Shown: positions 1 through 55,591 of the stretch, piece after piece
Numbering within the stretch: position 1 is the stretch's first letter
Layout of the letters: every line of letters begins with the position of its first letter
NCBI GenBank assembly: GCA_041665385.1
Contig: JBAYIX010000002.1
Span: 50,932-114,931, forward strand
DNA: 64,000 nucleotides
Origin: Minisyncoccota bacterium
GTDB taxonomy: Bacteria > Patescibacteriota > Minisyncoccia > Phycocordibacterales > PALSA-1337
Reading direction: 5' to 3'
The notes under the pieces: generated by a model
Database searches by the model: none
Told to the model about the DNA's origin: nothing
The model's input: the letters and a program-made list of their open reading frames with translations, nothing else
Position numbers and translations under genes: made by a program

Positions 1-656
1 TAAAAAAGGGTCATCATTATTATTACTGCACAAACGGCAAACAAAAGTGCGAGGAGCATAAAAGCTATATGCGCGAAAACTATCTCTATGAAAAAGTTTC
101 TGAATTATTTGATAGGTTAGACTTCACCAAACGCAAAATCAACCTTATGTATCGAGCAGCGAAGGAGATGGCGGAGAAAAATGATAACTACTCGGAAAAT
201 ATCTTAAATACGCTTAAAAGCCAATTAGGCACACTCAAAACAAAAGAAAATCGTTTACTAGATACTTTCCTCGCAGAACAGATTTCCAAGGATATATATG
301 ATGCCAAAGTCCTTGAAATACACAATGAGCGAGTTTCCCTTAACCAGAAGATACGGGAAACTGAAGCGAATGGTATGAAAGGAGTTTCTACTTTGGAACC
401 AGTGAAAGAGATCTTTTTACAAGGCAGTAGAGCCAAAAAAGAATTTCTCAAAGCAAATGATAGAAAGAAAAGAGAAATTATAGAAAATCTACTTTGGAAC
501 CTTTCATTCAGAGATAAAAATGTGGCCGAGATAAGGTTCAAAAGTACTTTTGAGATACTCGCAAAAACACCTAAAAATGCATCTATAAATACTTTGCTGC
601 GGGACTTGGATTCGAACCAAGATAACAAGCTTCAAAGGCTCGTGTCCTACCATTAG
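1..656 (+). CDS. Large serine recombinase, C-terminal fragment. The ORF is open to the window start; its last ~20 codons are antisense to tRNA-Gln.
   Basis: Frame upstream of the first Met reads YYCTNGKQKCEEHKSY, the zinc-ribbon/recombinase domain signature of large serine recombinases. Coiled-coil-like C-terminus. A+T-rich relative to neighbours. Confidence 0.55.
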   Translation, partial: KKGHHYYYCTNGKQKCEEHKSYMRENYLYEKVSELFDRLDFTKRKINLMYRAAKEMAEKNDNYSENILNTLKSQLGTLKTKENRLLDTFLAEQISKDIYDAKVLEIHNERVSLNQKIRETEANGMKGVSTLEPVKEIFLQGSRAKKEFLKANDRKKREIIENLLWNLSFRDKNVAEIRFKSTFEILAKTPKNASINTLLRDLDSNQDNKLQRLVSYH

Positions 657-667
657 ACGATCCCGCA
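597..667 (-). tRNA. tRNA-Gln (anticodon UUG)
   Basis: Minus-strand reading TGCGGGATCGTCTAATGGTAGGACACGAGCCTTTGAAGCTTGTTATCTTGGTTCGAATCCAAGTCCCGCAG folds as a cloverleaf. It has a U1:A72 pair, a G discriminator, the GTTCGAATC T-loop and anticodon loop CUUUGAA. CCA is not encoded. Confidence 0.85.
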
Positions 668-710
668 ATAATACTGTGATAAAGAACGGACCATTCATGA
701 TCCCGCAATA
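659..710. repeat. 12-bp direct repeat GATCCCGCAATA (659-670 and 699-710) duplicating the 5' end of tRNA-Gln
   Basis: Exact 12-mer repeated 40 bp apart. The first copy is part of the tRNA 5' acceptor/D region. Confidence 0.6.
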
Positions 711-744
711 TCTGTAAGTTACCAAAACAATCTACAACATTTTC

Positions 745-1764
745 CTAACTCTCACAAATACGCACTACCGCTATTTCTAGAGGCAGACTCTCTATCTTCG
801 CGCGCCCTGTAGCATCCGCGGCCTCTAGGAGCACCACGAGCATAGCCGGAGTCACGCGCTTCATCTCCCCCTCCTTTGCCACAAAATCCATATCATCGGG
901 AGACAACCTCTCGCCTACCGCGCGCTTGGACTGGGGGGAGTGCTGGAGAAGGAGTATGAACCTTACCTTCTCGAGTACCAGAGTCACAAAAGTAGACATA
1001 CTCACACCGGACTTCGTTCCTTGCCCTATACTATATAGTGCCCCATCTACATCCTTCCCCAAAAGTGCACTAACAAAGTCATTTACTAGACTCGCCTTGG
1101 GTGAGCCAGTTATAGCCTCCACATCTTCCCTATTTATCTTCTTTTTATTGGATGACCCTATCACTTTCTCGAGCATACCCAGAGCATCACGAAATGAGCC
1201 GTCACCAAGAAGCGCTATGAGGTCTGCCGCGCCCGGGTCTAGCTCATACTTCTCGCTCTTTGCTATGCTCTCTACCTGTTTCCTAACAATATCTCTCGAA
1301 GGCTTTCGGAAAGAGAAAGTCTGACATCTGGATATGATCGTATCTGGAACCTTATCGAGCTCCGTCGTAGCCAAAATAAATATTACATGTTGAGGAGGCT
1401 CTTCGAGGGTTTTGAGGAGAGCATTCCATGCATCCTTCGAGAGCATATGCACCTCATCTATTATGTAGACTTTATAAGGCGAGGAGAATGGCAAAACAGA
1501 GACATGCTCGCGCAAACTCCTTATATCATCTATACCTCGGTTCGATGCCGCATCTATCTCATAAATATCTTCATCCTTTGCTCCTACAGACTTTGCAAAT
1601 ATTCGGGCAAGAGTAGTCTTGCCTATTCCCCTACCTCCAGAAAAGAGATAGGCGTGGGCAATGCGCTTGTTCGCTATACTATCTTTGAGAGGGTCTACTA
1701 TATGCTCCTGCCCCACGACCTCGGACCATTTGGCTGGCCTATATGTGCGATACAAAACTGTCAT
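745..1764 (-). CDS. dnaX: DNA polymerase III subunit gamma/tau (short form)
   Basis: Walker A GGRGIGKTT, DEVHML Walker B/sensor motif and clamp-loader box motifs. 339 aa. Confidence 0.9.
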   Translation of the reverse strand: MTVLYRTYRPAKWSEVVGQEHIVDPLKDSIANKRIAHAYLFSGGRGIGKTTLARIFAKSVGAKDEDIYEIDAASNRGIDDIRSLREHVSVLPFSSPYKVYIIDEVHMLSKDAWNALLKTLEEPPQHVIFILATTELDKVPDTIISRCQTFSFRKPSRDIVRKQVESIAKSEKYELDPGAADLIALLGDGSFRDALGMLEKVIGSSNKKKINREDVEAITGSPKASLVNDFVSALLGKDVDGALYSIGQGTKSGVSMSTFVTLVLEKVRFILLLQHSPQSKRAVGERLSPDDMDFVAKEGEMKRVTPAMLVVLLEAADATGRAKIESLPLEIAVVRICES

Positions 1765-1798
1765 GATGGTTCATTCTAACACAAAAATTTATAGGAAA

Positions 1799-1832
1799 TA
1801 AAAAAAGGCCCAACATCTACAGGATGTGGGCC
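1799..1832 (-). terminator. Intrinsic terminator (minus strand) closing the small RNA upstream of dnaX
   Basis: GGCCCAACATC/GATGTGGGCC stem followed by a U7 run on the minus strand. Confidence 0.55.
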
Positions 1833-1990
1833 CCAAGGGATAACGCAAACCAAACCCTTTACTTTTCAGTGACTCCGGGGAAGAAGTCACTATGGTGCTT
1901 GAACGCAACGTGTAACCCACACACGTCTTCACTACCGGATAGCAGTATACCACATATCGATACAAATATGCAAATAAAAAAGCCCTCATC
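1833..1990 (-). ncRNA. Candidate small RNA (~130-150 nt) with its own promoter and terminator between dus and dnaX
   Basis: Minus strand carries TTGCAT-N18-TATACT at about 1960-1990. There is an internal hairpin AGTGACU..AGUCACU and the transcript ends at the 1799-1832 terminator. No ORF. The position upstream of dnaX recalls ffs synteny, but SRP motifs are not convincingly present. Confidence 0.3.
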
Positions 1991-2004
1991 ATCAGATGGG
2001 GGCT
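1975..2004 (-). terminator. Intrinsic terminator of the dus gene
   Basis: AGCCC..GGGCT hairpin followed by a U-run on the minus strand, about 50 nt after the dus stop. Confidence 0.5.
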
Positions 2005-2055
2005 TCAGACCGATTTCTCGGCCTATAGACCTGCTTTTGTTGTCCCTCTCCTACC

Positions 2056-3027
2056 TTATTTCGGAAAACTCTCTCCTATGATCCGCTTCACATCCCTTGA
2101 GTTCTTGGCCTCCATGAGCTTGACGCGCAACTCTTTTGCATTGTCCCAACCGGAAACATAGGCCTTGAAGTGTTTTTTCATAACGTCGAAGCTTTTCATA
2201 CCTTTGAATGTCTTTTCGAAAAGCTGGGCATGCTCTACCAAGATACTTACCCGCTCTTCCGGTGTCTTCTCTTTCGCCAAGTCGGCGAAAAACCAAGGCG
2301 TGCCGAATATTCCCCTGCCTATCATGATTCCGTCACAACCGTATTGTCTGCATTTTTCCCTGGCTTCAGCTAGGGTCTTCACATCGCCGTTGCCAATAAT
2401 GAGAGTGCCCGGAGATATCTCGTTCCGCAATTTCACAATTTCTGGCATGAGTTCCCAATGAGCCGCCACTTCTGACATCTCTTTCCTCGTGCGCAGATGC
2501 ACTGTGAGTGCAGGTAGACCTTGCATGAGGAGCGTACGTATCCAGTCCATGTCTACCTTGCTATACCCTAGCCTAGTCTTTACTGTGACAGGTATGCCCG
2601 GCGCACCCTCGCGAGCGGCCTTTATGACTTCGATGGCATTCTTGGGATTTCTTATCATCGCCGCGCCACCACCCTGCTTCTCTACCGACCGATCGGGACA
2701 GCCCATGTTTATATCCAATCCATCAAACTTGAGTTTGGCCACAAGCTCAGCCGCTTCCTTCATAGCCTTCGGGTGTCCGGAAAAAAGCTGAGCTACGATG
2801 GGGCGCTCTTTGGGTGAAAATTTCAGATCTATTATGAGCCTCTTCTTCCCGTCCGATACGAGACCGTCGGCGGAGACAAACTCGGTCCAAATGACATCCG
2901 GTTTGCCATACTTTGCGATAATCTTACGAAATACAGCATCGGTAACATTTGCCATAGGGGCGAGTACGAAAAATGGCTTGTTGAGATCTTTCCAGAAATT
3001 CTTGGTCTTTCGTGGTTTTATAGGCAT
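2056..3027 (-). CDS. dusB: tRNA-dihydrouridine synthase
   Basis: TIM-barrel Dus family motifs (LAPMANVTD, GxDINMGCP, FMN-binding region). Confidence 0.85.
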   Translation of the reverse strand: MPIKPRKTKNFWKDLNKPFFVLAPMANVTDAVFRKIIAKYGKPDVIWTEFVSADGLVSDGKKRLIIDLKFSPKERPIVAQLFSGHPKAMKEAAELVAKLKFDGLDINMGCPDRSVEKQGGGAAMIRNPKNAIEVIKAAREGAPGIPVTVKTRLGYSKVDMDWIRTLLMQGLPALTVHLRTRKEMSEVAAHWELMPEIVKLRNEISPGTLIIGNGDVKTLAEAREKCRQYGCDGIMIGRGIFGTPWFFADLAKEKTPEERVSILVEHAQLFEKTFKGMKSFDVMKKHFKAYVSGWDNAKELRVKLMEAKNSRDVKRIIGESFPK

Positions 3028-3079
3028 AAGTATTTAGTCTATGGGTTTTAAGCTTTCGCGCAAGTGTGAGCTGGTGTTA

Positions 3080-3244
3080 GTCCCGACTCACACACTCCCT
3101 TCCCTCGGCTGCGGATTCACTCGTCACATCTCGGCATTTCCACAAACTGTGCCCTGCAAGGATTCGGTCACAGTTTGGGAAATGCATCGAGATCTGACTT
3201 CGTGAAGAGTCCTCGCCTTCGGGAAGTGAGTGTGTGAGTCGGGA
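3080..3244. repeat. Compound long hairpin element G1 (~165 nt): near-perfect 25-bp outer inverted repeat GTCCCGACTCACACACTC..GAGTGTGTGAGTCGGGAC with nested inner hairpins
   Basis: Outer arms are at 3080-3104 and 3220-3244 with 1 mismatch. Inner hairpin GCATTTCCACAAACTGTG/CACAGTTTGGGAAATGC. Confidence 0.7.
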
Positions 3245-3392
3245 CCCCACCTTCTTCTTTTTGCGTCCCGAGGACTGTCTGAGAGAGTATAAATTTCTGG
3301 ACAAAATGGGAACCATTGCATGACCTCGTGACCATTTTGTCCTGAAATTTAACGAGCGAGTTCCGCAGGGACGCAAAAAGAAGAAGGTGGGG
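3245..3392. repeat. Compound long hairpin element G2 (~148 nt), in tandem with G1
   Basis: Perfect 25-bp inverted repeat CCCCACCTTCTTCTTTTTGCGTCCC (3245-3269) / GGGACGCAAAAAGAAGAAGGTGGGG (3368-3392). Inner hairpin GGACAAAATGG..CCATTTTGTCC. Confidence 0.7.
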
Positions 3393-3402
3393 TCCCGTAG
3401 CA

Positions 3403-4371
3403 CTACTTCACTCGCGATAAAAGCTTGACCACATCCGAATCCCTAGAATCACTTCCCAGTAGCACCACCGCATACATTTCCCTCTCCTCCCCAAAAGTAA
3501 ATATTGCCGCACTCGTGAGTTTTGCCTCCGGAATATAACCATTCTTGCCACCATAATAGTTCGACCAGTTCAGGAAGTGTGAAGGATTGACCCAGGTATG
3601 CGTACGCACAGTCTTTGTCTTCATATCTGTTATCTCCAATATTTCCGGATCATTCTTGCGTATCCAGTCCAGAATAATGGCGAGATCAGTCGCGGTCGAA
3701 CGATTGTCAGCGGAGAGACCAGACGGATCCCGAAAATATGTACGGTATGCACCTATCGTCTGAGCAAAATTATTCATGGCTTCTATGAAAGCCTTGCGGC
3801 CATAGTTGTGCGCAAAGGCTTCGGCGGCATCATTCGAGGAGACCATGAGGAGCGGGTAGAACATGTCTTTGGCCAGGAAAACCTCGCCTGCACGGAACTG
3901 GGCCGTATTGCCATAGGTATCGATGATGCTTTTAGAAAGGACGATGTGCTCATCGGGATCGATGAGCTTCCTCGCTACTATCGCAGTCACAAGCTTGGTC
4001 AAGGAAGCGACGGGCATGAGAGTGTCAGCATTGTTTGCGGCTATGACCTCGTCAGTGTCGAGGTTGCGGATGATATAGCCATTTGCAGTGATGTCATTTT
4101 CTAGAGACTGGGGGATATTGAGTGTGGCGGTATTTATGAGATCCTCTTCCTGACTCGCAGTATAGCGGATGAGACGACGGAAGCCCTCGAGACTGGTGCC
4201 TTCTATGGGCTGTTCGATGAGAGAAGCTATGGCATTTGCTGTCATATCGAGATCGATCCTAGAAATGACTGGCAATACATCATCATGAATCCAAACCAAA
4301 CCAAAATATATGCCAAAAAGGGCGATGATCATACCCAGGCCACCGTAAAGCACACTGAAAAATTGTCTCAT
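3403..4371 (-). CDS. D-alanyl-D-alanine carboxypeptidase (serine-type, PBP5/DacA family)
   Basis: N-terminal TM segment, SxxK (ASLTK) and SxN (SSND) motifs, class A/C low-MW PBP architecture. Confidence 0.75.
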   Translation of the reverse strand: MRQFFSVLYGGLGMIIALFGIYFGLVWIHDDVLPVISRIDLDMTANAIASLIEQPIEGTSLEGFRRLIRYTASQEEDLINTATLNIPQSLENDITANGYIIRNLDTDEVIAANNADTLMPVASLTKLVTAIVARKLIDPDEHIVLSKSIIDTYGNTAQFRAGEVFLAKDMFYPLLMVSSNDAAEAFAHNYGRKAFIEAMNNFAQTIGAYRTYFRDPSGLSADNRSTATDLAIILDWIRKNDPEILEITDMKTKTVRTHTWVNPSHFLNWSNYYGGKNGYIPEAKLTSAAIFTFGEEREMYAVVLLGSDSRDSDVVKLLSRVK

Positions 4372-4406
4372 CGTTACATATTATCACACGGCGGGAGACG
4401 CAATAG

Positions 4407-5360
4407 CTATTTTACCAGGCGATAAAAAACATTCGAGCCGAAACGAAGGTCGATCGTTTCAAAATTCAAATATTCATTTTTGGTACGAGCATCCGTGAGC
4501 ATGTGCGACCAGAAGGAAACGAAGTTGCTGATCTGGTTTTCGAAACCATTTACTTCATTGAAATAAACAACGATTGTTTCGACGGGTGTCGAAGTGCCTA
4601 CGACGGACTTGTCTTTGCCCGGATTTTCTATGAAGAGTTCGTATTCTCCCCCACCTTTCACGAGTATACCCAGTGGGTTCACACGAGAGAGACGCATAGA
4701 TTCATAAAATCCCTGCAGAGCTCGGAATGTACTCGAAGCAAATGCTTCCCTGCCGATGGCGTCGTTTTGCGGAGCGTCATTCTCTATGTCGAGGAGGTAG
4801 TAGCTGTTGTACATATTTACTGGAAAGACGCCAGCCTTCATATATATGACACCACTCGCATCGGTAAAAAAGCAGTTTTCCGATTGGCCGCCTGTTTCAG
4901 CATTTTCAGCAATACTGAAATTCGGCAATCCCGCACAGACCAGAGCAGCGGGAGACTTTTCGTGAACCTGTATGTCGAGACTGCCGAGACCGGACCGTCG
5001 TATGCTGAGTGATTCTATTCTAGGTGATGTCTCTTTTATAGCTTCGCTAATATCCGCCTTGGAAATAAGTAGAAAGTTCGACTTGGAAAACAGGCCGAGA
5101 TAGTCGCCCTCAAGTGCACGGAGAGCAGCCGCCTCGAGTGCAGGAAGAATGTCCGGGTCTGCGCCGGAAATACTGACATGCCCGATATTGACCCGATCGA
5201 GGTACGTAAAGCTGGAAATAGCATAGGTCCACGAACCAGCGGAAATGAGGACGAGAACTAAGGCAAAAAAGTTTCTCCGGCGTTTGTTTTCCGCAAACTT
5301 TGACGACTGACGCGCCAATGTTGTGATATGCACATTATGAACATCAAATCTTTTTTTCAT
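4407..5360 (-). CDS. ftsQ: FtsQ/DivIB-type cell division protein (POTRA domain)
   Basis: Basic N-terminus, one TM segment, then a POTRA-like region (IESLSIRRSGLGSLDIQVHEKSPAALV). Confidence 0.5.
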   Translation of the reverse strand: MKKRFDVHNVHITTLARQSSKFAENKRRRNFFALVLVLISAGSWTYAISSFTYLDRVNIGHVSISGADPDILPALEAAALRALEGDYLGLFSKSNFLLISKADISEAIKETSPRIESLSIRRSGLGSLDIQVHEKSPAALVCAGLPNFSIAENAETGGQSENCFFTDASGVIYMKAGVFPVNMYNSYYLLDIENDAPQNDAIGREAFASSTFRALQGFYESMRLSRVNPLGILVKGGGEYELFIENPGKDKSVVGTSTPVETIVVYFNEVNGFENQISNFVSFWSHMLTDARTKNEYLNFETIDLRFGSNVFYRLVK

Positions 5361-5385
5361 TCATATGCCGCACTGGCGGCAGGAT

Positions 5386-6648
5386 TTATTTTATAACATC
5401 CTTGCCCATGTACTTTGTGAGGACTTCGGGGATCTTGATACTGCCGTCGGGTTGCTGGAAATTTTCGATGAGAGAGACGAGGATACGAGGTGTAGGAATA
5501 GCTGTAGCGTTCAATGAATGAGCGTAGCGCATCACACCCTCGGCATCACGATAGCGGATATTGAGACGTCTGCATTGAAAATCATGGAAATACGATGCGG
5601 AACCGATCTCCCTGTATTTACCTTCCTTGGGAACCCAAAGTTCGATATCATACTTCTTTACTTGGCCGAGACCTAGGTCTGCGCCACAATTCACAACTGT
5701 GTGATACGGTATTCCGAGCGCTTCTATGAACTCTTCGGTATTCCTATTCACCTCCTCGTGATACTTTACGGACGCTTCGTGATTCGCTTCACAGAGTATC
5801 ACTTGCTCAAACTTATAAAATTCATTGACCCGTATGAGACCGTGAACGTCCTTACCATGGGCGCCCGCTTCCCTGCGAAAACACGGGGAAAATCCCAAAT
5901 ATTTCTTTGGAAGCTCGGCCGACGATAGAACTTCGTCACCATGAAGCCCCATTATGGGAACTTCGGCTGTACCTACTAGGTAATCTCCGTCTTGAGTTTT
6001 GTAAAGATCCTCTTCACCTTGAGGCAAGTAACCTGAGCCGTAGAGATTTATAGCCCGAACTATGACGGGAGGAATGATAGGCACAAAGCCTTTCTTTTGG
6101 AAGAATTCCAAGGCAAAATTCCAAATAGCAAAACACAGATTCACCGCATCACCGGTAAGAAAATATCCGCGAAAGCCATGGATCTTGGCTCCGCGCTCTA
6201 GATCGAGCATGCCGAGCTTGGTCATGATCTCGATATGGTTTTTGGGTTCAAATGGAAAACTGGTCTTTTCTCCCCAGACTTTGACTTCGAGATTGTCAGC
6301 ATCAGAATTACCATCAGGTACGGACATATCTGGAATATTTGGCACTGCGAGCATGAGAGCTTGCCACTCTTTCATTGTTCCCTTGAGTTCCTCCTCGTCT
6401 TTTTCCATTTCGCCCTTTACTATTTTCATTTCCCCTATGAGTTTTGTTCTTTCTTCTGGATCTTTTGCTCCACTGATCTTTTCGCTGGCTATGTTTTGTG
6501 CCGCGCGTTTCTTTTCCACAGCGAGCAAGAGTAATTTGCGCTTGTCATCTGATACTAGGAGCTGGTCTACGTCAAATTTTAGATGTTTTTTCTTTGCGGC
6601 TGACGCGATGAGATCCTTGTTTTCTCTGATGAATTTTATGTCTAACAT
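5386..6648 (-). CDS. serS: Seryl-tRNA synthetase
   Basis: N-terminal coiled coil and class II core motifs (FRRE, GLGQ..). Confidence 0.9.
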   Translation of the reverse strand: MLDIKFIRENKDLIASAAKKKHLKFDVDQLLVSDDKRKLLLLAVEKKRAAQNIASEKISGAKDPEERTKLIGEMKIVKGEMEKDEEELKGTMKEWQALMLAVPNIPDMSVPDGNSDADNLEVKVWGEKTSFPFEPKNHIEIMTKLGMLDLERGAKIHGFRGYFLTGDAVNLCFAIWNFALEFFQKKGFVPIIPPVIVRAINLYGSGYLPQGEEDLYKTQDGDYLVGTAEVPIMGLHGDEVLSSAELPKKYLGFSPCFRREAGAHGKDVHGLIRVNEFYKFEQVILCEANHEASVKYHEEVNRNTEEFIEALGIPYHTVVNCGADLGLGQVKKYDIELWVPKEGKYREIGSASYFHDFQCRRLNIRYRDAEGVMRYAHSLNATAIPTPRILVSLIENFQQPDGSIKIPEVLTKYMGKDVIK

Positions 6649-6702
6649 GTGGCTATTTTAGCACAATTATTTTGATTTGCATTACTATGGTAAAATTGTG
6701 AC

Positions 6703-6810
6703 CGTCCCGCCTGCATCCTGCCTTTTCGCAAGATTTGAAATAGTTGTGCAGGGTCCGAGTATTGTAAATACTTCACAAATCTTGCGAAAAGGCAGGATGC
6801 AGGCGGGACG
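6703..6810. repeat. Giant-hairpin element A: perfect 35-bp inverted repeat around a 38-nt conserved loop core
   Basis: Arms are 6703-6737 and 6776-6810, exact reverse complements. Loop AAATAGTTGTGCAGGGTCCGAGTATTGTAAATACTTCA is identical to the element B loop. Confidence 0.85.
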
Positions 6811-6816
6811 AATAAC

Positions 6817-7698
6817 ATGAAGTTAACAACAAAAAGAATATCCATAGAAGACTATCCGATATTGCTCAACGAAATATCGAGCCCTCCCCCACACATGGAC
6901 TTTGCTGGCAGATTTCCAGATAAAAAAGACAAATATCTCTGTGTAGTAGGATCTCGTCACAACAGCGTATACGGTGAAGATGTCACAAGGAAGCTAATAG
7001 CGGGCCTCAAAGGCTATCCCATAACTATAGTCTCTGGTCTTGCTGTCGGTATTGACTCCATCGCTCACGAGGCCGCTCTGGAGAATGGACTGAATACGAT
7101 ATGCTTTCCCGGGTCTGGTTTGTCTCTATCTGTACTCTACCCAGCTGTAAAGCGCGATCTAGCGCTCCGCATCGTGGAGAGTGGTGGCGCGTTGTACTCA
7201 CAGTTCGGCATGAACCAGCTCGGAGACAAATGGACATTTCCGAATAGGAACCGCACCATGGCCGGTGCATCTCATGCGACTCTCATCATCGAAGCGGCAG
7301 AGAAGTCCGGCAGTCTCATCACGACCAGTCATGCCCGAGAATTTGGCCGGGAAGTATTCGCCGTACCAGGATCCATCATATCCGACTTGTCTTATGGACC
7401 ACACAGTCTTATTCGTGACGGCGCGACACCTGTATATTCTGCTGAGGATATCTTGCAGGGATTGGGATTCCAGGTCATACGGACAGATGGAATGATTTCC
7501 GCCTTGCCAAATTATTCTGAGATGAAGCTGGAACCAGATCAGAGAACTATCATAGATCATCTTCGCATCGAGAAGCTTTCATCTACAGGACTTATAGACA
7601 AGACGGGCTTTACAGCGACAAAACTCAATCTGGTGATTTCTGAACTCGAGCTATTGGGATTGGTAAAGGATGCAAATGGAATATATAGACTAATGTAG
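6817..7698 (+). CDS. dprA: DNA-processing protein DprA (Smf)
   Basis: Rossmann-like DprA core (GIDSIAHEAAL, GSGLS, TxxxAxE) and a C-terminal winged helix. Confidence 0.85.
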   Translation: MKLTTKRISIEDYPILLNEISSPPPHMDFAGRFPDKKDKYLCVVGSRHNSVYGEDVTRKLIAGLKGYPITIVSGLAVGIDSIAHEAALENGLNTICFPGSGLSLSVLYPAVKRDLALRIVESGGALYSQFGMNQLGDKWTFPNRNRTMAGASHATLIIEAAEKSGSLITTSHAREFGREVFAVPGSIISDLSYGPHSLIRDGATPVYSAEDILQGLGFQVIRTDGMISALPNYSEMKLEPDQRTIIDHLRIEKLSSTGLIDKTGFTATKLNLVISELELLGLVKDANGIYRLM

Positions 7699-7817
7699 GT
7701 AAAAGCGGACATGCAATGTGCTCTTTTTGCATGATTTGAAATAGTTGTGCAGGGTCCGAGTATTGTAAATACTTCACAAATCATGCAAAAAGAGCACATT
7801 GCATGCCCGCTTTTACC
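7698..7817. repeat. Giant-hairpin element B: 41-bp inverted repeat (1 mismatch) around the same core as A. It fills the whole convergent intergenic gap.
   Basis: Arms are 7698-7738 and 7777-7817. The loop is 100% identical to A. The arms overlap the dprA stop (7696-7698) and the desulfurase stop (7813-7815). Confidence 0.85.
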
Positions 7818-9036
7818 GGATGCGTCCAAGTAATTCTTTTATTATTTTCAATGCTTTCATCACCTCCCTCTCAGTACTCCACCGCCCAAAAGAAAACCGC
7901 ACAGAATTTTTGCTGTTCGCACCGATGGTTTTGAGCACGTAGGATTCATCTTCGTCACGCAGACAGGAGCTCTTGGTAGAAGCCGCAATACCGTGTGCAT
8001 CTAATTCCATTACGAAGAATTCACTCTCTATGCCGGGAATGGAAACATTTAGGATGTGGGGGGACACCGCACCATCGAAATTTGTGTCACGCTCATCACC
8101 CTTGGCACGTTCCCCATTTACCTTTATGTCCTTATTTATCCGAAGTAATTCATTCATAAAAAGTTTCTTGAGCGAGATGAGCCGGACTGACTCTGCTTCG
8201 CGTGTCTGGCTCACGATATTCACAGCCTCGGCAAACCCCATCACGCCTGGAAGATTTTCTGTACCCGAACGCAAACCCTTTTCCTGGCCTCCGCCATACA
8301 TGACAGGAGAAATAGGCAATGAACGCTTCTTGTAAAGTGCACCTATTCCTCTCGGACCAAAGACCTTACTACTGTCGAGAGTGAGCATATCCACACCGAG
8401 TTTTTCTACATTCAAGTCCTGATAGAGTCCCTGCGCGGCATCGGTATGCAAGAGCGGATATTTCACATCCTGATAGGCGAAAGCCGAGGTTTCGGCGTAC
8501 TTTTCCCTAGCTTGGCGGACCATCTTCGCTATCTCACGTATGGGTTCGACAGTACCGATCTCATTGTTCACAGTCATGACAGAGATGAGTACAGTGTCGG
8601 GACGGATCTGTTTTTTGAGACTATCGAAATCGACTGCGCCATCGCTATTTACTCGGATCACCTCTACCCGAACACCCTTTTCGCTGAGGTGGTTCGCACA
8701 TTCGCGGACGGACGAATGTTCTATGGCACTTATGAGCACATGCATGGAGTCATATTCGAGACCAGTATTGCGCAAGCGTTCGATCGAGCCTAATAGCGCA
8801 AGATTGTTACTCTCGGTACCACCAGAAGTGAAAGTGATGTCATCTGGATGAGCATGGAGATATTCCGCAACTGTTTTTCGTGCTGTCACGAGAGCTTCCT
8901 TTGCTAGGACGCCTTCGCTATACCAGGAAGAAGGGTTGGCATACATAGGGTCGGAATACTGCTTCATGGTGCGGAGAACACCCTCATCTATGGGAGTGAG
9001 CGAGGCATAGTCGAGATAGATGCGCTTTTTGAACAT
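7813..9036 (-). CDS. Cysteine desulfurase (NifS/IscS class V aminotransferase)
   Basis: PLP-lysine region and SGGTESNN motif. Start placed at the internal Met MFKKRIYLDYASLTP (ATG at 9036) rather than the upstream extension to 9234. Confidence 0.8.
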   Translation of the reverse strand: MFKKRIYLDYASLTPIDEGVLRTMKQYSDPMYANPSSWYSEGVLAKEALVTARKTVAEYLHAHPDDITFTSGGTESNNLALLGSIERLRNTGLEYDSMHVLISAIEHSSVRECANHLSEKGVRVEVIRVNSDGAVDFDSLKKQIRPDTVLISVMTVNNEIGTVEPIREIAKMVRQAREKYAETSAFAYQDVKYPLLHTDAAQGLYQDLNVEKLGVDMLTLDSSKVFGPRGIGALYKKRSLPISPVMYGGGQEKGLRSGTENLPGVMGFAEAVNIVSQTREAESVRLISLKKLFMNELLRINKDIKVNGERAKGDERDTNFDGAVSPHILNVSIPGIESEFFVMELDAHGIAASTKSSCLRDEDESYVLKTIGANSKNSVRFSFGRWSTEREVMKALKIIKELLGRIR

Positions 9037-9090
9037 GACATGAGTGTACAATATTTTGCCTTTTCTGGTAAGACATACGATAATGGTGCA

Positions 9091-9555
9091 ATGCAAACAA
9101 TATTTCAAAACCCACTTTTGGTCGGCTTCATAGCGCTCTGTATCACAAACGTCATTTTTCTCGGCATCATCCTGTGGATGTATTTCAGACAACGCAAATT
9201 CCTGGTGGGTTTTGATTCCGAAAATGTCAGCCAATCTCTACAGTTCGTCTCTGCAAATCTGCGCGACATGGAAAAATTTCGCAAAGAGATGGAAACATAT
9301 CTTACCCAGGTAGAGCGCCGTCTCCGGAAGAGTGTGCAGTCAGTGAATACGGTCCGCTTCAACCCCTTCAAAGGCACGGGTGACGGTGGCAACCAGAGCT
9401 TTGCGACAGCGCTCCTGAACGAAGACGGAGATGGTGTGGTCATTTCCAGTCTGCACTCGCGCGACCATACGAGGGTATTTTCCAAGCCGGTAGTAGGCCG
9501 CGAGTCAGAGATCGAGCTTTCTGAAGAAGAGCGGGATGCGATAGCGATGAGGTAA
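9091..9555 (+). CDS. Hypothetical membrane protein (one N-terminal TM segment)
   Basis: ORF 9040-9555. The start was moved to an internal Met (MQTIFQNPLL..) because the upstream ATG abuts the divergent desulfurase start. Confidence 0.45.
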   Translation: MQTIFQNPLLVGFIALCITNVIFLGIILWMYFRQRKFLVGFDSENVSQSLQFVSANLRDMEKFRKEMETYLTQVERRLRKSVQSVNTVRFNPFKGTGDGGNQSFATALLNEDGDGVVISSLHSRDHTRVFSKPVVGRESEIELSEEERDAIAMR

Positions 9556-9646
9556 GGAATTTTTTTGAGTGCAAATTTAGTGTCAAAAATTAGTTTGACT
9601 AATTCTTTTTTTACCAGTATAAATTAAACAAACATAGTACGGCGGC

Positions 9647-12226
9647 ATGCGTGTGCATGTCGCTTTTGACAACGAAATAATAATAAGAGAAAGGCAAAGT
9701 GTGAAAAAATGTATATCTGCGGTGTTTGCTGTATTGATCATTACTAACTTCTGCAATGAGGTTAAAAGTGAGATCAGGTATATGGTTACCGATATAAGCG
9801 GAAAAGAAACGGATATCATAAGCAGAGCATTTGGTATCAATAATCGTGGTCAAATAGGTGTTGATGGTAGAGTATCTGGGAAAAGCGGACTATTTATCTA
9901 CACCGAAGGCAAATTCGATCAGGTTGGGCCAGAGACAAATGATATTACATCTGGCTATGCGATAAATGATCTGGGTCAGGTCGTCGGTCGATCATTTCGC
10001 AACGGCACGTTTGGCGGTTACCCATTCATTGACAGAGGCGATGAGCTGATTGACTTCAATGACGGTGATCAGAGTCGACAAGGTGCATTATTGAGTATAA
10101 ACAACTTGGGTGATGCAGTCGGAGTTATCGATATAGGAGATCATGCAGAGGGCTTTACCTATGTCGGCAAACAGATCGGCCTCATAGGCACATTCGAATC
10201 TTCGGGTACATCTTTGATAGCCATCAATGATCTAGGTCACATGGCCGGAAATCTGAATGTTCCTGACTGGTCATCGAGGGAAGCCTTCATCTATGCGGAT
10301 GGAAAAATGAAAAGACTCGGTACCTTGGGTGGAGAGTATAGTTATGCCGTCGCAATGAACAACAGGGACCAGGTCGCCGGTATGTCACTCTTAAAAGATG
10401 ACAACCTCGCGCATGTGTTCCTATATTCAGACGGAGTCATGAAAGATATAGGTTCAAATCCGGATTCATATTTGAGTGTGAGTGATCTGAATATTCACGG
10501 ACAAATAGTTGGCTTTGTGGCATACAGTATAAAAGATCCAAACCATCTCACCTATCATGCATATCTTTTCTCGGAAAAAGAAAATGCAGACCTGAACACA
10601 CTCATCGATCCGACATCCGGCTGGGAACTGCACCAGGCATATGGAAACAATGACTGGGGTCAGATAATCGGAACGGGTTTGTTCAAAGGAAAATCAAAAG
10701 TGTTCCTACTCACTCCCCTGGGCGGGACGCCGATACAGGCGATACAGAAACAACCGGAACGGCCGACATATGGAGACTATCCGGTCAAGGAGGAAGGAAA
10801 GGATAGTCTGGTGGTGGTGACACATGGGTGGATAAAATCAGATAGTGATCCTACCGCATCGACTAAATGGGTTGAGGTAATGACAAATCATATATCTGAA
10901 TATTTTGTCAATAATAATATAAATAATTGGCAATTGTGCGGATATAGGTGGATAAATTACGCTCACATACCTAATTATCAAGGTGGACCCGAGACTGCTA
11001 TACGAAACTCTAGACAAATTGGTCAGAGTCTTGGTCTCAAAATATATCAACAAAAATACTCCCGTGTTCACTTCATCAGTCACAGTGCCGGCGCTGGTCT
11101 TATTCAAGCGGCAACAGATGTAATAAAAAAACACAATCCCTCTGTGCAAATCCAAGAAACATTTCTGGATCCGTATGTCGGGGCAGATTTCTCCGGCACT
11201 TCGTGGTATGGGACAAATGCTAATTGGGCAGATAACTACTCAAGTAAGGATAAGGAAACTGGAAATCATTATTTATCTTTTACCTATAATATTCTTCTAA
11301 ATGCGTACAACGTCGATGTCACCAGACTCGATGTTGCAAACAGGGTAAATATGCCCTACTGGACTACTGGTAACGATCAACCGTGTTACGTTACAGAATC
11401 AACTCATGGTTGGCCCGTAGAATTCTACCAGAATACAATCATTGGAAATACAACCAAAGAATATGAGGGATTTGGGTTTCAGTTGAGTCAGGAAGCGACA
11501 GAATGGGATTCGGTCTCAACAAGGTTCAAGGTCGGAAACACTAGTCCCGGACACATTCTCGGACATGCAGACCCGAACAATTGTCGTTTCAAATATCCGG
11601 TGCCATATTATCCTTCGTTCATCATGGACTTCATCGGTAATCCTTCCATACAAAGCGATACAGGCACAATTGAGAAATACTTAAATGGTAGTTTTGTCTC
11701 AAAAAGCGGTTCGCCAGTATGGATTGTAACTTCCGGTGTATCTACAAATGTGATTAATACAGTTTCGTTCGATGCGACATTCGGAAGCTTGACCGGATCC
11801 GAAGGACTCCTGACTGTTTATTGGAAAAGCAATATAGTTGGGTCTATTGACCAACGATACGTTCAAGATGGATTCCAACACTATTCCTTCCAATTTCCGA
11901 AAAATATCAGTAATGAATCATACTCACTCGGGTTTCGCCTGGACCCGTTTACGAAAATTCAGTCGGTGGTAATAGTAACGAATGTTATCGTATCAGTAAG
12001 CGGTGTAAGTGAGCCATTCTTACTCAAGCCTACAGGCAACACAAGCGATTCATATAGTTTACAATTGATAGGCCAAAAAGGATTTGAGTATAGGATTCAA
12101 TCCTCCGATGATCTATTCGATTGGAAAACTATTGCAGTCATTGTTAATACAACGGGTTCGGTGCAATTTATTGACACCGATACCACAGGGTCATCTCGTC
12201 GGTTCTACCGAGCGATAGTACCGTAA
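9647..12226 (+). CDS. Large secreted protein with HAF-type extracellular repeats, an alpha/beta-hydrolase (lipase/esterase GxSxG) domain and a C-terminal beta-rich domain
   Basis: Signal/TM peptide. About 8 repeats of the INDLGQVVG type. FISHSAGAG serine-hydrolase motif. 859 aa. Confidence 0.7.
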   Translation: MRVHVAFDNEIIIRERQSVKKCISAVFAVLIITNFCNEVKSEIRYMVTDISGKETDIISRAFGINNRGQIGVDGRVSGKSGLFIYTEGKFDQVGPETNDITSGYAINDLGQVVGRSFRNGTFGGYPFIDRGDELIDFNDGDQSRQGALLSINNLGDAVGVIDIGDHAEGFTYVGKQIGLIGTFESSGTSLIAINDLGHMAGNLNVPDWSSREAFIYADGKMKRLGTLGGEYSYAVAMNNRDQVAGMSLLKDDNLAHVFLYSDGVMKDIGSNPDSYLSVSDLNIHGQIVGFVAYSIKDPNHLTYHAYLFSEKENADLNTLIDPTSGWELHQAYGNNDWGQIIGTGLFKGKSKVFLLTPLGGTPIQAIQKQPERPTYGDYPVKEEGKDSLVVVTHGWIKSDSDPTASTKWVEVMTNHISEYFVNNNINNWQLCGYRWINYAHIPNYQGGPETAIRNSRQIGQSLGLKIYQQKYSRVHFISHSAGAGLIQAATDVIKKHNPSVQIQETFLDPYVGADFSGTSWYGTNANWADNYSSKDKETGNHYLSFTYNILLNAYNVDVTRLDVANRVNMPYWTTGNDQPCYVTESTHGWPVEFYQNTIIGNTTKEYEGFGFQLSQEATEWDSVSTRFKVGNTSPGHILGHADPNNCRFKYPVPYYPSFIMDFIGNPSIQSDTGTIEKYLNGSFVSKSGSPVWIVTSGVSTNVINTVSFDATFGSLTGSEGLLTVYWKSNIVGSIDQRYVQDGFQHYSFQFPKNISNESYSLGFRLDPFTKIQSVVIVTNVIVSVSGVSEPFLLKPTGNTSDSYSLQLIGQKGFEYRIQSSDDLFDWKTIAVIVNTTGSVQFIDTDTTGSSRRFYRAIVP

Positions 12227-12246
12227 TAGTTCTTTGCAGATTCACA

Positions 12247-12273
12247 GGGCTCGCTTCGGCGGGCTCTTTTTTT
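12247..12273 (+). terminator. Intrinsic terminator of the large secreted protein gene
   Basis: GGGCTCGC-TTCG-GCGGGCTC (UUCG tetraloop) followed by T7. Confidence 0.6.
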
Positions 12274-12559
12274 ATATTCCATACAGAAAAATAATAAAAA
12301 AAGATGGGTATTGAAATATAAAAACTATTCCTCCCAATAGGATAACCAGATATCCAATTAATTGAGAATTATTTAATTTAATAATTCGAAATCCAAAAAA
12401 CATTCCCAATATAATCAAGATCAAACTTGATCCTATTATAAGAATATTGAACATGCCTGGTAGTGAAGATACAAAAAATAATAATGTGGAAAGCGCGTAG
12501 CAGGTCACGGATATAATAATGTTTGTATGTTTTTTCATGTTCATATAATTATACACCAC
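12272..12559 (-). CDS. Small 2-TM membrane protein, paralogue 1 of the tandem array
   Basis: 95 aa, two hydrophobic helices, MKKH.. start. Conserved promoter-like upstream TATAAT..ATGAAA. Confidence 0.55.
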   Translation of the reverse strand: MVYNYMNMKKHTNIIISVTCYALSTLLFFVSSLPGMFNILIIGSSLILIILGMFFGFRIIKLNNSQLIGYLVILLGGIVFIFQYPSFFIIFLYGI

Positions 12560-12796
12560 TTATGGATATACACACTACCTACCGAATGACTATCCTGTGA
12601 GTCACGAAGAGCGTTTGAGTGGATTCCTTTATATTGACGCCTGACCTACAGCATTAACAGATAGGACTAAAATAAGGAACAAGCAAATTATCCGAATAAA
12701 AAAACAGTGCAACTAGGATGATATAGGAGACAAATGATAGATGGACGTTTTTTAGGTTTTTTATATTTAAATTATACCTTTTTAATGAAATCTGAA

Positions 12797-13102
12797 TTAA
12801 TATCCCGCAAAACCAGACATGAGTAGAAGATATCCGACTATGACAACAATTCCCATAACAGTACAAAGATTGCCAGCCCAGGCTGATTCTTTGATTTTGT
12901 TGCTTTTGAAACCGAAAAATACACCGCTGAAGAGTAATATAAATAAACCGATTAAAACGATCGCATTCATTACAATTCCAATATTAGAAGGTATAGAAGT
13001 TGTGCGAGTGAAATCGTCACCAATATTTATCCAGGTAATAAACCAAATCATTGCTAGAATGTAGGAACCTATAGAATAGAAAATATTTTTATATTGTTTC
13101 AT
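12797..13102 (-). CDS. Small 2-TM membrane protein, paralogue 2
   Basis: Start at internal Met MKQYKNIF (ATG 13102). Same architecture and upstream motif as its neighbours. Confidence 0.55.
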   Translation of the reverse strand: MKQYKNIFYSIGSYILAMIWFITWINIGDDFTRTTSIPSNIGIVMNAIVLIGLFILLFSGVFFGFKSNKIKESAWAGNLCTVMGIVVIVGYLLLMSGFAGY

Positions 13103-21157: not shown

Positions 21158-21177
21158 GCGCATTGGAAACAATGCGC
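21158..21177 (+). terminator. Intrinsic terminator (GAAA tetraloop) after the 20708-21136 gene
   Basis: GCGCATTG-GAAA-CAATGCGC followed by TTTT. Confidence 0.55.
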
Positions 21178-21293
21178 TTTTCTCTCGGGCACACAACTTT
21201 CTTTTTGTCGGATTTGAGAAGTTGTGCAAAGTCCGGGTAATCATAATAGCTCGCAAATCTGACAAAAAGAAAGTTGTGTGCCCGAGAGAAAAG
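21177..21293. repeat. Giant-hairpin element C: 40-bp inverted repeat (1 G.T wobble) around a 37-nt core related to A/B/E
   Basis: Arms are 21177-21216 and 21254-21293. Loop AGAAGTTGTGCAAAGTCCGGGTAATCATAATAGCTCG. Confidence 0.85.
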
Positions 21294-21302
21294 CTGTAGT
21301 GC

Positions 21303-36536: not shown

Positions 36537-36622
36537 TTTTTCTTTTGTTTATGATAAAAGCCATTACAACTGGTGTAATGATATCACATGCCATAAATGC
36601 GGCCTGTGGATAGTGGGAATAG

Positions 36623-45511: not shown

Positions 45512-45597
45512 TAATTTCACGGGGCTGGTCCATCCAGCCTTTTTTGATACACAAAATCATTTTAAAAAAGAAACAATCGATATCAATAAAATTATGG

Positions 45598-45616
45598 TGA
45601 CCATACGGGGAGTCGG
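45598..45616. repeat. Partial duplicate (17/19 nt) of the 3' end of tRNA-Glu. Possible att-type scar.
   Basis: TGACCATACGGGGAGTCGG here versus TGACCCTACGGGGAGTCGA at 45753-45771. Confidence 0.5.
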
Positions 45617-45715
45617 TCACGCGTCCTCGCCTACTGGCTCGGCGCTCGACCCCGCCTCGCTCGCCTTCGCTCGCTCCGGCTTTCGACTCTCTCCCCCGGA
45701 GATCACACACGACAC

Positions 45716-45745: not shown

Positions 45746-45752
45746 GGTCGTG

Positions 45753-52679: not shown

Positions 52680-52713
52680 AGTTGTTTGAACTGAACATGT
52701 GTGAACCAATCAC

Positions 52714-52745: not shown

Positions 52746-52984
52746 ATATGCAGATACGTTTCCCCCACCCAGCACAGGAAGAAGAATCCGAGGGACGTTT
52801 CGGAGGCCGGTTCGCCTCCGTAGCTTTAGCGAAGGAGGGCGAGGCGGCCGAGAACCAGCCGCTCTGCCAGCAGGCAGAGACGGCGTGTCCCGAGGAACTT
52901 CTTCGTGTGCTGGGTGGGGGGCAGTGGCTATTGAACTTATATACCCCCATAGACAAAAAGGTGGCTATGTTATACTATATTTAC

Positions 52985-54824: not shown

Positions 54825-54997
54825 GCGTTCAGGTCCTACGTGCGGTGGAGGGACATTTGGAGTCCGAGCCGGATACAGCGTATCTGCATTATCATTACAA
54901 GGCTCGGACGAAACTAGCTCAAAATCCGCAACAGGCGTTCTATGAGCAGTTGCGGATTTTGAGCGTGTCCCGGAATCCGCACGTAGGACCTGAACGC
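54825..54997. repeat. Compound long hairpin between lexA and dinB: perfect 21-bp outer inverted repeat with nested 13-bp and 9-bp hairpins
   Basis: GCGTTCAGGTCCTACGTGCGG at 54825-54845 and its exact reverse complement at 54977-54997. Inner hairpins CAAAATCCGCAAC..GTTGCGGATTTTG and GTCCGAGCC..GGCTCGGAC. Confidence 0.7.
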
Positions 54998-55583: not shown

Positions 55584-55591
55584 GGGGGAAA

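What the first reader, a model, noticed from the sequence alone, without database searches (positions are those of the whole stretch)
3080..3392. Two tandem compound hairpin elements (G1, G2) filling the dus/dacA intergenic region; similar compound hairpins at 40929-41080 and 54825-54997
G1 (~165 nt) and G2 (~148 nt) each have 25-bp near-perfect outer inverted repeats with nested internal hairpins, and they sit back-to-back. Element F (40929-41080) has 36-bp arms around an 80-nt structured core. The lexA/dinB spacer has a perfect 21-bp outer repeat with 13-bp and 9-bp nested hairpins. Several terminal arms begin with GTCCCG/CGGGAC (A, G1, G2). These may be larger relatives of the conserved-loop hairpin family, or structured RNAs.
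Basis: seen in the sequence. Interest (0 to 1): 0.55.

Follow-up and report, generated by a model that had tools for sequence, protein, structure and literature searches.

The report
Two tandem palindromic DNA insertions
Two back-to-back, roughly 160-base, near-perfect DNA palindromes fill the gap between the dacA and dus genes of an uncultivated Paceibacterota (CPR) bacterium. They are insertions specific to this lineage, part of a crowd of long hairpin elements in this genome, and are most likely selfish foldback DNA rather than a conserved RNA gene.

Summary
G1 (3080-3245) and G2 (3240-3397) are two adjoining long hairpins of about 65 and 60 predicted pairs. Their folding z-scores are -14 to -17, equal on both strands. 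They share the hexamer CGGGAC at their junction.

They are extra DNA. dacA and dus end and start at conserved positions, and seven relatives with the same gene order have 14-70 nt spacers. Here the spacer is 375 nt, or 57 nt once the elements are removed.

The window (a Paceibacterota metagenome contig) holds 10 such hairpins in 64 kb. About 88 kb from five relatives holds one.

The stems are almost purely Watson-Crick (325 of 332 outer pairs; about 2% G-U on either strand). That points to DNA-level palindromes, not an RNA selected on one strand. There is no Rfam match, no protein homolog of the overlapping ORF, and no match in phage, plasmid or viral collections.

G1 and G2 have no significant sequence homolog in the data I could reach. 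They share only architecture and short motifs with the other elements: GTCCCG occurs in 6 of 10 elements against 0.65 expected.

Best reading (confidence about 0.55): non-autonomous palindromic repeat elements of the MITE/REPIN kind, inserted in tandem. As a side effect they would act as strong RNA hairpins at the dacA 3' end. The mobilising enzyme is unknown. TIGR stem-loop guide RNAs were considered and not supported.

The parts
3080..3245 (.). G1: a 166-nt foldback element, one long imperfect hairpin of about 65 pairs
3080..3104 (.). G1 left outer arm; begins GTCCCG
   Evidence: I2: 25 nt, 96%
3221..3245 (.). G1 right outer arm; ends CGGGAC
   Evidence: I2
3138..3182 (.). G1 inner hairpin: 17-nt arms around an apical loop that contains CCCTGCAAGGATTCGG
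   Evidence: I5
3240..3245 (.). CGGGAC hexamer used by both elements: it is the 3' end of G1 and the 5' end of the G2 stem
   Evidence: (I1)
3240..3397 (.). G2: a 158-nt foldback element. It has a 30-bp perfect outer stem, two unpaired stretches, an inner 20-bp hairpin and a 22-nt apical loop.
3240..3269 (.). G2 left outer arm
   Evidence: 30 nt, 100% to 3368-3397
3368..3397 (.). G2 right outer arm; ends GTCCCG, 5 nt before the dacA stop codon
3290..3351 (.). G2 inner hairpin (20-nt arms, 95%)
   Evidence: I3
3403..4371 (-). dacA (D-Ala-D-Ala carboxypeptidase). Its stop codon sits at the same position as in relatives.
2056..3027 (-). dus (tRNA-dihydrouridine synthase). 52 nt of ordinary spacer lie between its start and G1.
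3077..3403 (-). 108-codon ORF lying across G1 and G2, judged spurious
   Evidence: No Pfam hit. The only library hits are chance matches to giant repeat adhesins. It is not called in the ENA contig annotation.
40929..41080 (.). F: compound hairpin with 36-bp outer stem, about 21 and 23 nt unpaired, and an inner 11-bp hairpin. CGGGAC lies in its right internal loop.
52762..52920 (.). H: compound hairpin with 23-bp outer stem and branched core. It is intergenic and lies 17 nt after a canonical terminator.
54825..54997 (.). I: compound hairpin in the lexA/dinB spacer, with a 21-bp perfect outer stem and nested 16-bp and 9-bp hairpins
45600..45712 (.). J: a decayed relative of the H core that no longer forms a strong hairpin

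Best explanation
G1 and G2 are two copies of a lineage-specific kind of palindromic (foldback) repeat DNA. They were inserted side by side into the short dacA-dus spacer of a Paceibacterota bacterium. They are non-coding, non-autonomous elements of the general MITE/REP/REPIN kind.

**Shown**
- They are extra DNA relative to relatives.
- They are DNA-type palindromes, Watson-Crick on both strands.
- This genome carries many such elements and its relatives carry almost none.
- Sister elements sit flush against gene ends, and one of them supplies a stop codon.

**Inferred**
- They spread through a single-stranded hairpin intermediate handled by a structure-recognising enzyme encoded elsewhere in the genome. 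That route would leave no target-site duplication.
- Their arms stay complementary because one arm templates the other, either during repair or at each transposition.
- The tandem pair arose when one element landed at the CGGGAC end of the other.

**Consequence, also inferred**
- Both genes are on the minus strand, so transcription from dacA runs into G2 and then G1.
- The RNA would form hairpins of about 60 and 65 bp. These could stall or stabilise the dacA 3' end, or be cut by RNase III.
- They occupy the place where a relative has a small terminator-like hairpin.
For: **1. Insertion.**
- The DacA C-terminus and stop codon, and the Dus start, are at conserved positions.
- Spacers in seven syntenic relatives are 70, 55, 47, 21, 20, 17 and 14 nt, against 375 nt here.
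- Removing 3080-3397 leaves 5 + 52 = 57 nt.

**2. Lineage-specific expansion.**
- The window has 10 long near-perfect hairpins in 64 kb.
- Relatives L005, L016, L018 and L019 (about 77 kb together) have none, and L006 (11.7 kb) has one.

**3. DNA-level palindromy.**
- 325 of 332 outer-stem pairs are Watson-Crick, with 1 G-T and 2 A-C.
- 12 of 541 predicted pairs are G-U on each strand. G2 has none.
- Folding energies are equal on both strands.

**4. A repeat family around it.**
- Five simple hairpins share a conserved apex but have unrelated stems.
- A and B share only their inner 70 nt (94% identical), and both differences are compensated.
- The same apexes, with other stems, occur three times on a JGI metagenome contig that shares no DNA or protein similarity with the window beyond the hairpin cores.

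**5. Behaviour typical of inserted elements.**
- Element D starts exactly after the last conserved valS codon (..VEKWP) and supplies the codons GK plus the stop.
- B overlaps both convergent stop codons.
- H sits just after a canonical terminator.
- J is a decayed copy of the H core.

**6. Context.** The elements occur in divergent, convergent and tandem gene contexts and never inside conserved coding sequence.

**7. Shared hexamer.** GTCCCG occurs in 6 of 10 elements.

**8. Nothing else fits.** There is no known RNA family and no coding signal.

**9. Literature.** A published survey reports that CPR phyla have the highest density of perfect inverted repeats of any phylum (PMC13155455).
Against: - No second copy of G1 or G2 was found. 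Only about 72 kb of this genome and a few kb of a related one could be searched, so mobility of these two particular sequences is not shown.
- There is no consistent target-site duplication or conserved flanking target.
- No transposase or hairpin-binding nuclease gene lies in the window.
- In classical MITEs and REPINs the arms are the conserved part. In the simple family here the apex is conserved and the arms differ completely. That fits no described mobilisation mechanism.
- Arms remain near-perfect although copies are unalignable, so some maintenance process or selection must be assumed.
- Relative L006 has a hairpin at the same dprA/serS spacer, in the same orientation as A. This could mean long-term retention rather than selfish turnover.
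Confidence: 0.55

Rival explanations
1. The hairpins are selected at the RNA level as cis-acting elements of the dacA-dus transcript. They could be a terminator substitute, a 3'-end stabiliser, or an RNase III processing site that uncouples the two genes. Their palindromic DNA would then be merely the template.
For: - They lie in a co-directional spacer just after the dacA stop codon, where relative L005 has a small terminator-like hairpin.
- No canonical terminator or promoter was detected in 2900-3500.
- The predicted RNA stability is extreme.
- The element in the lexA/dinB spacer also sits between co-directional genes.
- Hairpins of comparable repeat elements in Neisseria (Correia) and enterobacteria (ERIC) are known, from my own knowledge, to affect mRNA processing.
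Against: - Seven relatives do without the elements.
- G-U pairs are almost absent and there is no strand asymmetry.
- Sister elements sit in divergent promoter regions (A) and in both orientations relative to transcription (D versus E), which does not fit one RNA role.
- The organism has ordinary short terminators (52714-52750; 45520-45545; 45716-45747).
- There is no U-tract after either hairpin.
Confidence: 0.2
2. The palindromes were made locally, by template switching or fold-back priming during replication or repair. These processes copy one side of a sequence onto the other. On this view the elements are not mobile.
For: - The stems are perfect and specific to each locus.
- Homology ends abruptly between the conserved inner part and the unrelated outer stems of A and B.
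- The outermost 6 bp of the G2 stem are the complement of the neighbouring G1 end.
Against: - About 156 nt of unique half-sequence had to come from somewhere, yet spacers in relatives are only 14-70 nt.
- The apexes of the simple family are conserved between loci and are also found on a second, non-overlapping metagenome contig.
- The shared hexamer occurs in 6 of 10 elements.
- D supplies rather than copies the valS tail. This is only weak evidence, because that tail varies among homologs.
Confidence: 0.12
3. G1 and G2 are stem-loop guide RNA units of a TIGR-Tas-like system. Such units have a variable palindromic stem, two short single-stranded spacers and a hairpin between the spacers. They have been described for CPR TasR clades, including arrays with overlapping stems.
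For: - The architecture of G2 and F resembles the description in PMC12045711 and bioRxiv 10.64898/2026.09.09.750476. Each has an outer stem, unpaired stretches of roughly 16-23 nt on both sides, and an inner hairpin.
- The G1 and G2 stems overlap.
- The host is a CPR bacterium.
- CTT repeats lie near the base of the G2 stem.
Against: - No Nop/Tas protein is in the window. Pfam shows none and three unknown proteins have no PDB relatives.
- The elements are scattered over more than 50 kb among housekeeping genes rather than arrayed next to an effector gene.
- There are no consistent box C (CCA) and box D (UG) motifs flanking 8-12 nt spacers.
- G1, H and I lack the two-spacer layout.
- The stems (21-36 bp) are perfect on both strands.
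Confidence: 0.04
4. The 108-codon ORF across the region (3077-3403, minus strand) is a real small protein gene, or the region is an assembly artefact.
For: - An ORF of 108 codons spans both elements.
- Two contigs end at or inside such palindromes.
Against: - The ORF has no Pfam hit.
- Its only library hits are chance matches to 3600-aa repeat adhesins.
- The ORF is not called in the source annotation.
- The sequence, as far as each contig reaches, is identical in three independent assemblies.
Confidence: 0.02

Closest known systems
REPINs / REP sequences mobilised by RAYT (TnpA-REP) transposases (e.g. PMC3116915, PMC2817692, PMC8266576)
   Same: - Non-coding intergenic palindromic repeats that form hairpins of about 100 nt.
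- Many copies per genome, with lineage-specific expansion and no target duplication.
- Hairpin structure is preserved by paired changes.
- They occur in clusters with alternating arm orientation (BIME-like), as with the shared CGGGAC arm end of G1 and G2.
   Different: - In REPINs the arms (the REP sequences) are the conserved, enzyme-recognised part and the loop varies. In the simple family here the apex is conserved and the arms are unrelated.
- G1 and G2 have no detected sister copies.
- No RAYT gene was seen, though only part of the genome was available.
- The stems here are longer (21-44 bp) and nearly perfect.
Bacterial MITEs with long hairpin-forming inverted repeats (Neisseria Correia elements, enterobacterial ERIC, Rickettsia palindromic elements; reviewed in PMC2229807 and PMC3184786)
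   Same: - Size of 100-170 nt, no coding capacity, and an intergenic location close to gene ends.
- They can supply stop codons, and they give strong RNA hairpins when co-transcribed.
   Different: - MITE copies share their terminal inverted repeats and usually have target-site duplications. Neither holds here.
- No parent insertion sequence is known.
TIGR stem-loop arrays of CPR bacteria (PMC12045711; bioRxiv 10.64898/2026.09.09.750476)
   Same: - Variable palindromic stems.
- Sequence conservation confined to a few bases.
- An optional inner hairpin and possibly overlapping stems.
- The host group is the same.
   Different: - There is no adjacent tas gene, no dual-spacer layout with box C/D motifs, and no array.
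- The elements are dispersed among housekeeping genes.
Integron attC sites
   Same: Imperfect palindromes of 57-141 nt whose structure, not sequence, is conserved, and whose terminal structure is variable (my own knowledge).
   Different: - There are no R''/R' core sites (RYYYAAC / GTTRRRY) at the stem bases.
- There is no integrase and no cassette array.
- The flanking genes are conserved syntenic housekeeping genes.
Intrinsic (Rho-independent) terminators
   Same: A position just after a stop codon, and a stable hairpin.
   Different: - The stems are 5-10 times longer than in terminators and there is no U-tract.
- The genome has ordinary short terminators elsewhere.

Membership tests
MITE | Terminal inverted repeats | tested here: met
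   G1 has 25-nt arms at 96%. G2 has 30-nt perfect arms.
MITE | Terminal repeats and body shared among many copies | tested here: not met
   Neither G1 nor G2 is significantly similar to any other element (z 2.8 or below). Only about 72 kb of this genome was searched.
MITE | Target-site duplication flanking the element | tested here: not met
   The flanks of all 10 elements show no consistent direct repeat. F has TAAC on both sides and the G1-G2 pair has TA on both sides; the others have none.
MITE | A related autonomous element with the same ends | not testable with these tools
   No transposase is in the window. The rest of the genome could not be reached.
MITE / insertion in general | Empty site in related genomes | tested here: met
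   Seven syntenic relatives have 14-70 nt spacers. The window has 57 nt once 3080-3397 is removed. These relatives are distant (Dus 69-77% identical), so the exact boundaries are inferred.
REP / REPIN | A short conserved palindromic unit repeated many times, in inverted pairs | tested here: not met
   The arms are not conserved between elements. Only the hexamer GTCCCG recurs.
REP / REPIN | A RAYT (Y1 transposase) gene in the genome | not testable with these tools
   None is in the window. The whole genome is not available.
TIGR stem-loop array | An adjacent Tas (Nop-domain) protein gene | tested here: not met
   No Nop-domain hit appears among the window's genes. Three unknown proteins have no PDB relative.
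TIGR stem-loop array | [quoted passage not shown] | tested here: inconclusive
   G2 and F have unpaired stretches of 16-23 nt on both sides of an inner hairpin. No consistent CCA...UG pattern was seen by eye, and G1, H and I lack the layout.
TIGR stem-loop array | Tandem array of units | tested here: not met
   Only two units are adjacent. The others are dispersed over more than 50 kb.
Conserved-loop hairpin family of this window (A-E) | The conserved apex (AGTTGTGCARRGTC... / ...TTCGAGGTAGCTC) | tested here: not met
   An nhmmer profile of the core finds A-E and the three metagenome copies, but not G1, G2, F, H or I.
Conserved-loop hairpin family of this window (A-E) | A long near-perfect stem in an intergenic spacer, with shared short motifs | tested here: met
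   (GTCCCG, TGCAGGG, TCCGAG)
Known structured RNA family (Rfam) | A score at or above the family's gathering threshold | tested here: not met
   Only tRNAs pass in the window. A permissive search gives generic microRNA-precursor hits far below threshold.
Intrinsic terminator | A short G+C-rich stem followed by a T-run | tested here: not met
   0 sites in 2900-3500.
Integron attC | R''/R' core sites at the stem base, and an integrase with a cassette array | tested here: not met
   The stem bases read GTCCCGAC, CGGGACCC and the like, not GTTRRRY. The neighbouring genes are syntenic housekeeping genes.

The most novel reading that the evidence does not exclude
These hairpins may represent an undescribed class of foldback element in CPR bacteria. 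In this class a short recognised core (an apex, or a GTCCCG-type motif) is conserved. The long arms are regenerated or corrected from one another, so they stay perfectly complementary while diverging freely between copies. That would imply a hairpin-templated mobility or repair mechanism not covered by current MITE/REPIN models. It could also explain why CPR phyla top the tree of life in perfect inverted-repeat density (PMC13155455). A variant of this reading is that the hairpins are dispersed guide or decoy RNAs for an unrecognised effector.
Probability: 0.15. Interest if true: 0.75.

Novelty: new variant of a known kind. Interest (0 to 1): 0.45.

Why it matters
- CPR/Patescibacteria genomes are small and streamlined. 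Yet this one spends about 2% of a 64-kb stretch on long perfect palindromes.
- Long perfect palindromes are normally unstable in bacteria.
- A recent survey found the highest inverted-repeat densities of any phylum in CPR lineages and gave no explanation.
- Elements like G1 and G2 are a concrete candidate for that signal.
- If the arms are kept complementary by an active process, or if a conserved apex is what gets recognised, that would point to a new way for small DNA elements to spread or to be maintained.
- Practically, these elements break assemblies and create false gene calls. One called 263-aa gene swallows element H, and a 108-codon ORF spans G1 and G2.

Tried and rejected
**Collection scans for the conserved apex (AGTTGTGCARRGTCCGRGTA)**
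- Genome contigs: 2 matches. The one inspected (L003) has no hairpin, and both score only weakly against the core profile.
- Viral contigs: none.
- Metagenome contigs: 2 true loci on one JGI contig plus 4 chance matches.

**Testing whether stem arms are spacer-like**
- Arms of D, E and G1 have no exact match in viral contigs.
- No arm matches anywhere else in the window.

**Searches with G1 and G2 themselves**
- BLAST against phage and plasmid collections found nothing.
- Rfam at the gathering threshold and in permissive mode gave only generic microRNA-like hits below threshold.

**The 108-aa ORF**
- A search of 1.84 billion representative proteins gave only chance matches to giant repeat adhesins.

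**Kinship between elements**
- Several motif similarities I first saw by eye were not significant in shuffled-control alignments: 'CCC..GCACAC', 'TCTTTTTGC', the ends of the H and I cores, and the idea that 3392-3412 is a third G1-like arm.
- Only H versus J was significant.
- The outer 15 nt of the extended G2 stem pair at only 8 of 15 positions by my count, so I dropped those claims.

**TIGR-Tas reading**
- No tas gene and no box C/D layout were found.

**valS C-terminus as a test of whether arms copy flanking sequence**
- The tail after ..VEKWP varies among homologs. The result supports insertion only weakly.

**Target-site duplications or a conserved insertion target**
- None was found.

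**Promoter inside the spacer**
- The consensus scan found none.
- By eye, L005 and the window share a similar TTGC..-N16-TA...T arrangement 7-8 nt before the dus ATG. It is below the scan's threshold and I do not rely on it.

**Walking along the source contig**
- This was not possible. Look-ups accept only window proteins, and all 12 were used.

Full report
**What is there**

The region 3080-3397 holds two adjoining long hairpins.

G1 (3080-3245):
- It has 25-nt outer arms with 24 of 25 positions complementary.
- It folds as one imperfect hairpin of about 65 pairs, with an inner 17-nt repeat at 3138-3154 / 3166-3182.

G2:
- It has 24 perfect outer pairs at 3246-3269 / 3368-3391.
- The perfect stem is really 30 bp (3240-3269 / 3368-3397). 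Its right arm continues with GTCCCG, which pairs with the CGGGAC that ends G1. The two elements therefore overlap by six bases.
- Inside G2 a 20-bp hairpin (3290-3309 / 3332-3351) is flanked by unpaired stretches of 20 and 16 nt.

Chance and artefact can be excluded:
- Folding z-scores are -14.0 on the + strand as RNA, -16.5 on the - strand as RNA, and -16.7 as DNA. No shuffle folded as well.
- The sequence recurs in three independent assemblies. The ENA contig is identical over the whole region. The JGI contig reaches 3365, and its single mismatch in 2641 nt lies outside the elements. The Logan contig is identical and breaks inside G1 at 3138.

**Where it is**

- By the names attached to Dus and ValRS homologs, the window is from a Patescibacteria / Paceibacterota metagenome genome.
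- Window positions 1-55045 correspond to ENA contig ERZ27249449 k141_613101, by contig-coordinate arithmetic. DNA identity was checked directly only for window 1-13027.
- dacA (3403-4371) and dus (2056-3027) are both on the minus strand. A transcript leaving dacA would therefore meet G2 first and then G1.
- A 108-codon ORF covers both elements. It has no Pfam match, it is not called in the source annotation, and its only library hits are chance matches to 3600-aa repeat adhesins. I treat it as spurious.

**It is an insertion**

- Seven relatives (Dus 69-77% identical) keep the order serS - ftsQ-like gene - dacA - dus.
- Their dacA-dus spacers are 70, 55, 47, 21, 20, 17 and 14 nt.
- The window's DacA ends ..KLLSRVK*, at the same position as the relatives' ..KLLSKVR*.
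- G2 ends 5 nt from that stop codon, and G1 ends 52 nt from the dus start.
- Without the elements the spacer would be 57 nt, inside the relatives' range.

**It is one of many**

- The window has ten long near-perfect hairpins in 64 kb: G1, G2, F, H and I, plus five simpler ones, A to E.
- About 77 kb from four relatives has none, and 11.7 kb from a fifth has one.
- A further stretch, J (45600-45712), is a decayed relative of the H core. The alignment z-score is 5-6, and it no longer folds better than shuffles.
- The elements lie between divergent, convergent and co-directional genes and never inside conserved coding sequence.
- H is intergenic. It lies 17 nt after an ordinary terminator and before the likely true start of the next gene at 52986.
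- Element D starts exactly after the last conserved valS codon (..VEKWP) and supplies two codons and the stop. ValRS homologs end 0-10 variable residues after WP.

**DNA palindromes, not a one-strand RNA**

- Of 332 outer-stem pairs, 325 are Watson-Crick, one is G-T and two are A-C.
- Across all predicted pairs, 12 of 541 are G-U on each strand. G2 has none.
- Energies are equal on both strands.
- From general knowledge, structured RNAs that have diverged this far normally carry many more G-U pairs, and on one strand only.
- No Rfam family passes its threshold.

**Relation to the conserved-loop family**

- A to E share an apex of three related types. The same apexes occur three times on JGI contig Ga0172379_10000958 with quite different stems.
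- A and B are 94% identical over only their inner 70 nt. Both differences are compensated and the outer stems are unrelated.
- In that family, then, the centre is conserved and the arms are not. This is the reverse of MITEs and REPINs.
- G1 and G2 do not carry that apex and are not significantly similar to any other element.
- What they share is the architecture and short motifs. GTCCCG/CGGGAC is the hexamer present in the most elements: 6 of 10, against a shuffle mean of 0.65 and a maximum of 4 in 5000. It is present in all five compound hairpins.
- Kinship is plausible but unproven.

**Mechanism**

- The best-supported reading is that G1 and G2 are non-autonomous palindromic repeat DNA, inserted in tandem.
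- The insertion, the lineage-specific expansion and the DNA-type symmetry are shown.
- How the elements move, and why the arms stay complementary, is inferred.
- I favour a single-stranded hairpin intermediate and arm-to-arm templating. There are no target duplications, and copies differ while their arms match.
- No transposase lies in the window.
- As a by-product, the dacA transcript would end in or run through two very stable hairpins. No canonical terminator or promoter was detected in the spacer.

**Rivals**

- An RNA-level cis role is possible as a consequence. As the reason for the elements' existence it is poorly supported.
- Local palindrome formation cannot supply about 156 nt of new unique sequence.
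- TIGR stem-loop guide RNAs of CPR bacteria look superficially alike: variable palindromic stems, an inner hairpin and overlapping stems. Against this, there is no tas gene in the window, no box C/D dual-spacer layout and no array.

**Literature**

- I found no description of such elements in CPR bacteria.
- One survey reports that CPR phyla have the highest perfect inverted-repeat density of all phyla. It gives no mechanism (PMC13155455).

**Limits**

- Only about 72 kb of this genome could be read.
- The copy number of G1 and G2 and their expression therefore remain unknown.

Noticed in passing
window 6703-6810, 7698-7817, 21176-21294, 36622-36736, 38909-39022; L008 2184-2291 and 3149-3257; L012 1411-1522: This is a family of simple hairpins with 35-44 bp near-perfect stems. 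The apex is conserved (three loop types) while the stems are unrelated between copies. A and B flank dprA and share only their inner 70 nt, and both differences between them are compensated. The same apexes occur on a second, non-overlapping metagenome contig with other stems. Conservation of the centre rather than the arms is the reverse of known MITEs and REPINs.
   Followed up: partly
window 36622-36736 and 36728-38881: Hairpin D begins exactly after the last conserved codon of valS (..VEKWP) and supplies the final two codons and the stop codon. Hairpin B (7698-7817) likewise overlaps the stop codons of both convergent neighbours.
   Followed up: partly
window 45600-45712: A G+C-rich stretch lies between two ordinary terminators, upstream of tRNA-Glu. 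It is a decayed relative of the core of hairpin H and no longer folds better than shuffled sequence.
   Followed up: partly
L006 6559-6662: A relative (Dus 71% identical) has a hairpin with 33-bp arms in the same dprA/serS divergent spacer and in the same orientation as hairpin A. It has GATTTG..CAAATC at the stem top but otherwise different sequence. This could be an old retained element or a repeated insertion site.
   Followed up: partly
L001 16184-16355 (about 3.2 kb to the left of the window start): A 91-nt tRNA-Arg(TCT) is flanked by 37-nt inverted repeats. It lies inside what looks like an integrated element (serine recombinase, Rep protein, type I restriction-modification genes) next to tRNA-Gln at window 596-667.
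   Followed up: partly
window 52682-53488: The source annotation calls a 263-aa gene that swallows hairpin H. The real gene probably starts at 52986 (MNKTPYIAY...). A canonical terminator lies at 52714-52750.
   Followed up: partly
window 55045 and 3138: The ENA contig ends 48 nt beyond hairpin I, and a Logan contig ends inside G1. Short-read assemblies seem to break at these palindromes. Window 55046-64000 is not on the ENA contig.
   Followed up: no
window 25627-26931 and 31185-32528; 27692-29770: Two paralogous class II Asp/Asn-type tRNA synthetase genes lie 4 kb apart. A 692-aa protein whose only precomputed Pfam hit on record is SHMT lies between them.
   Followed up: no
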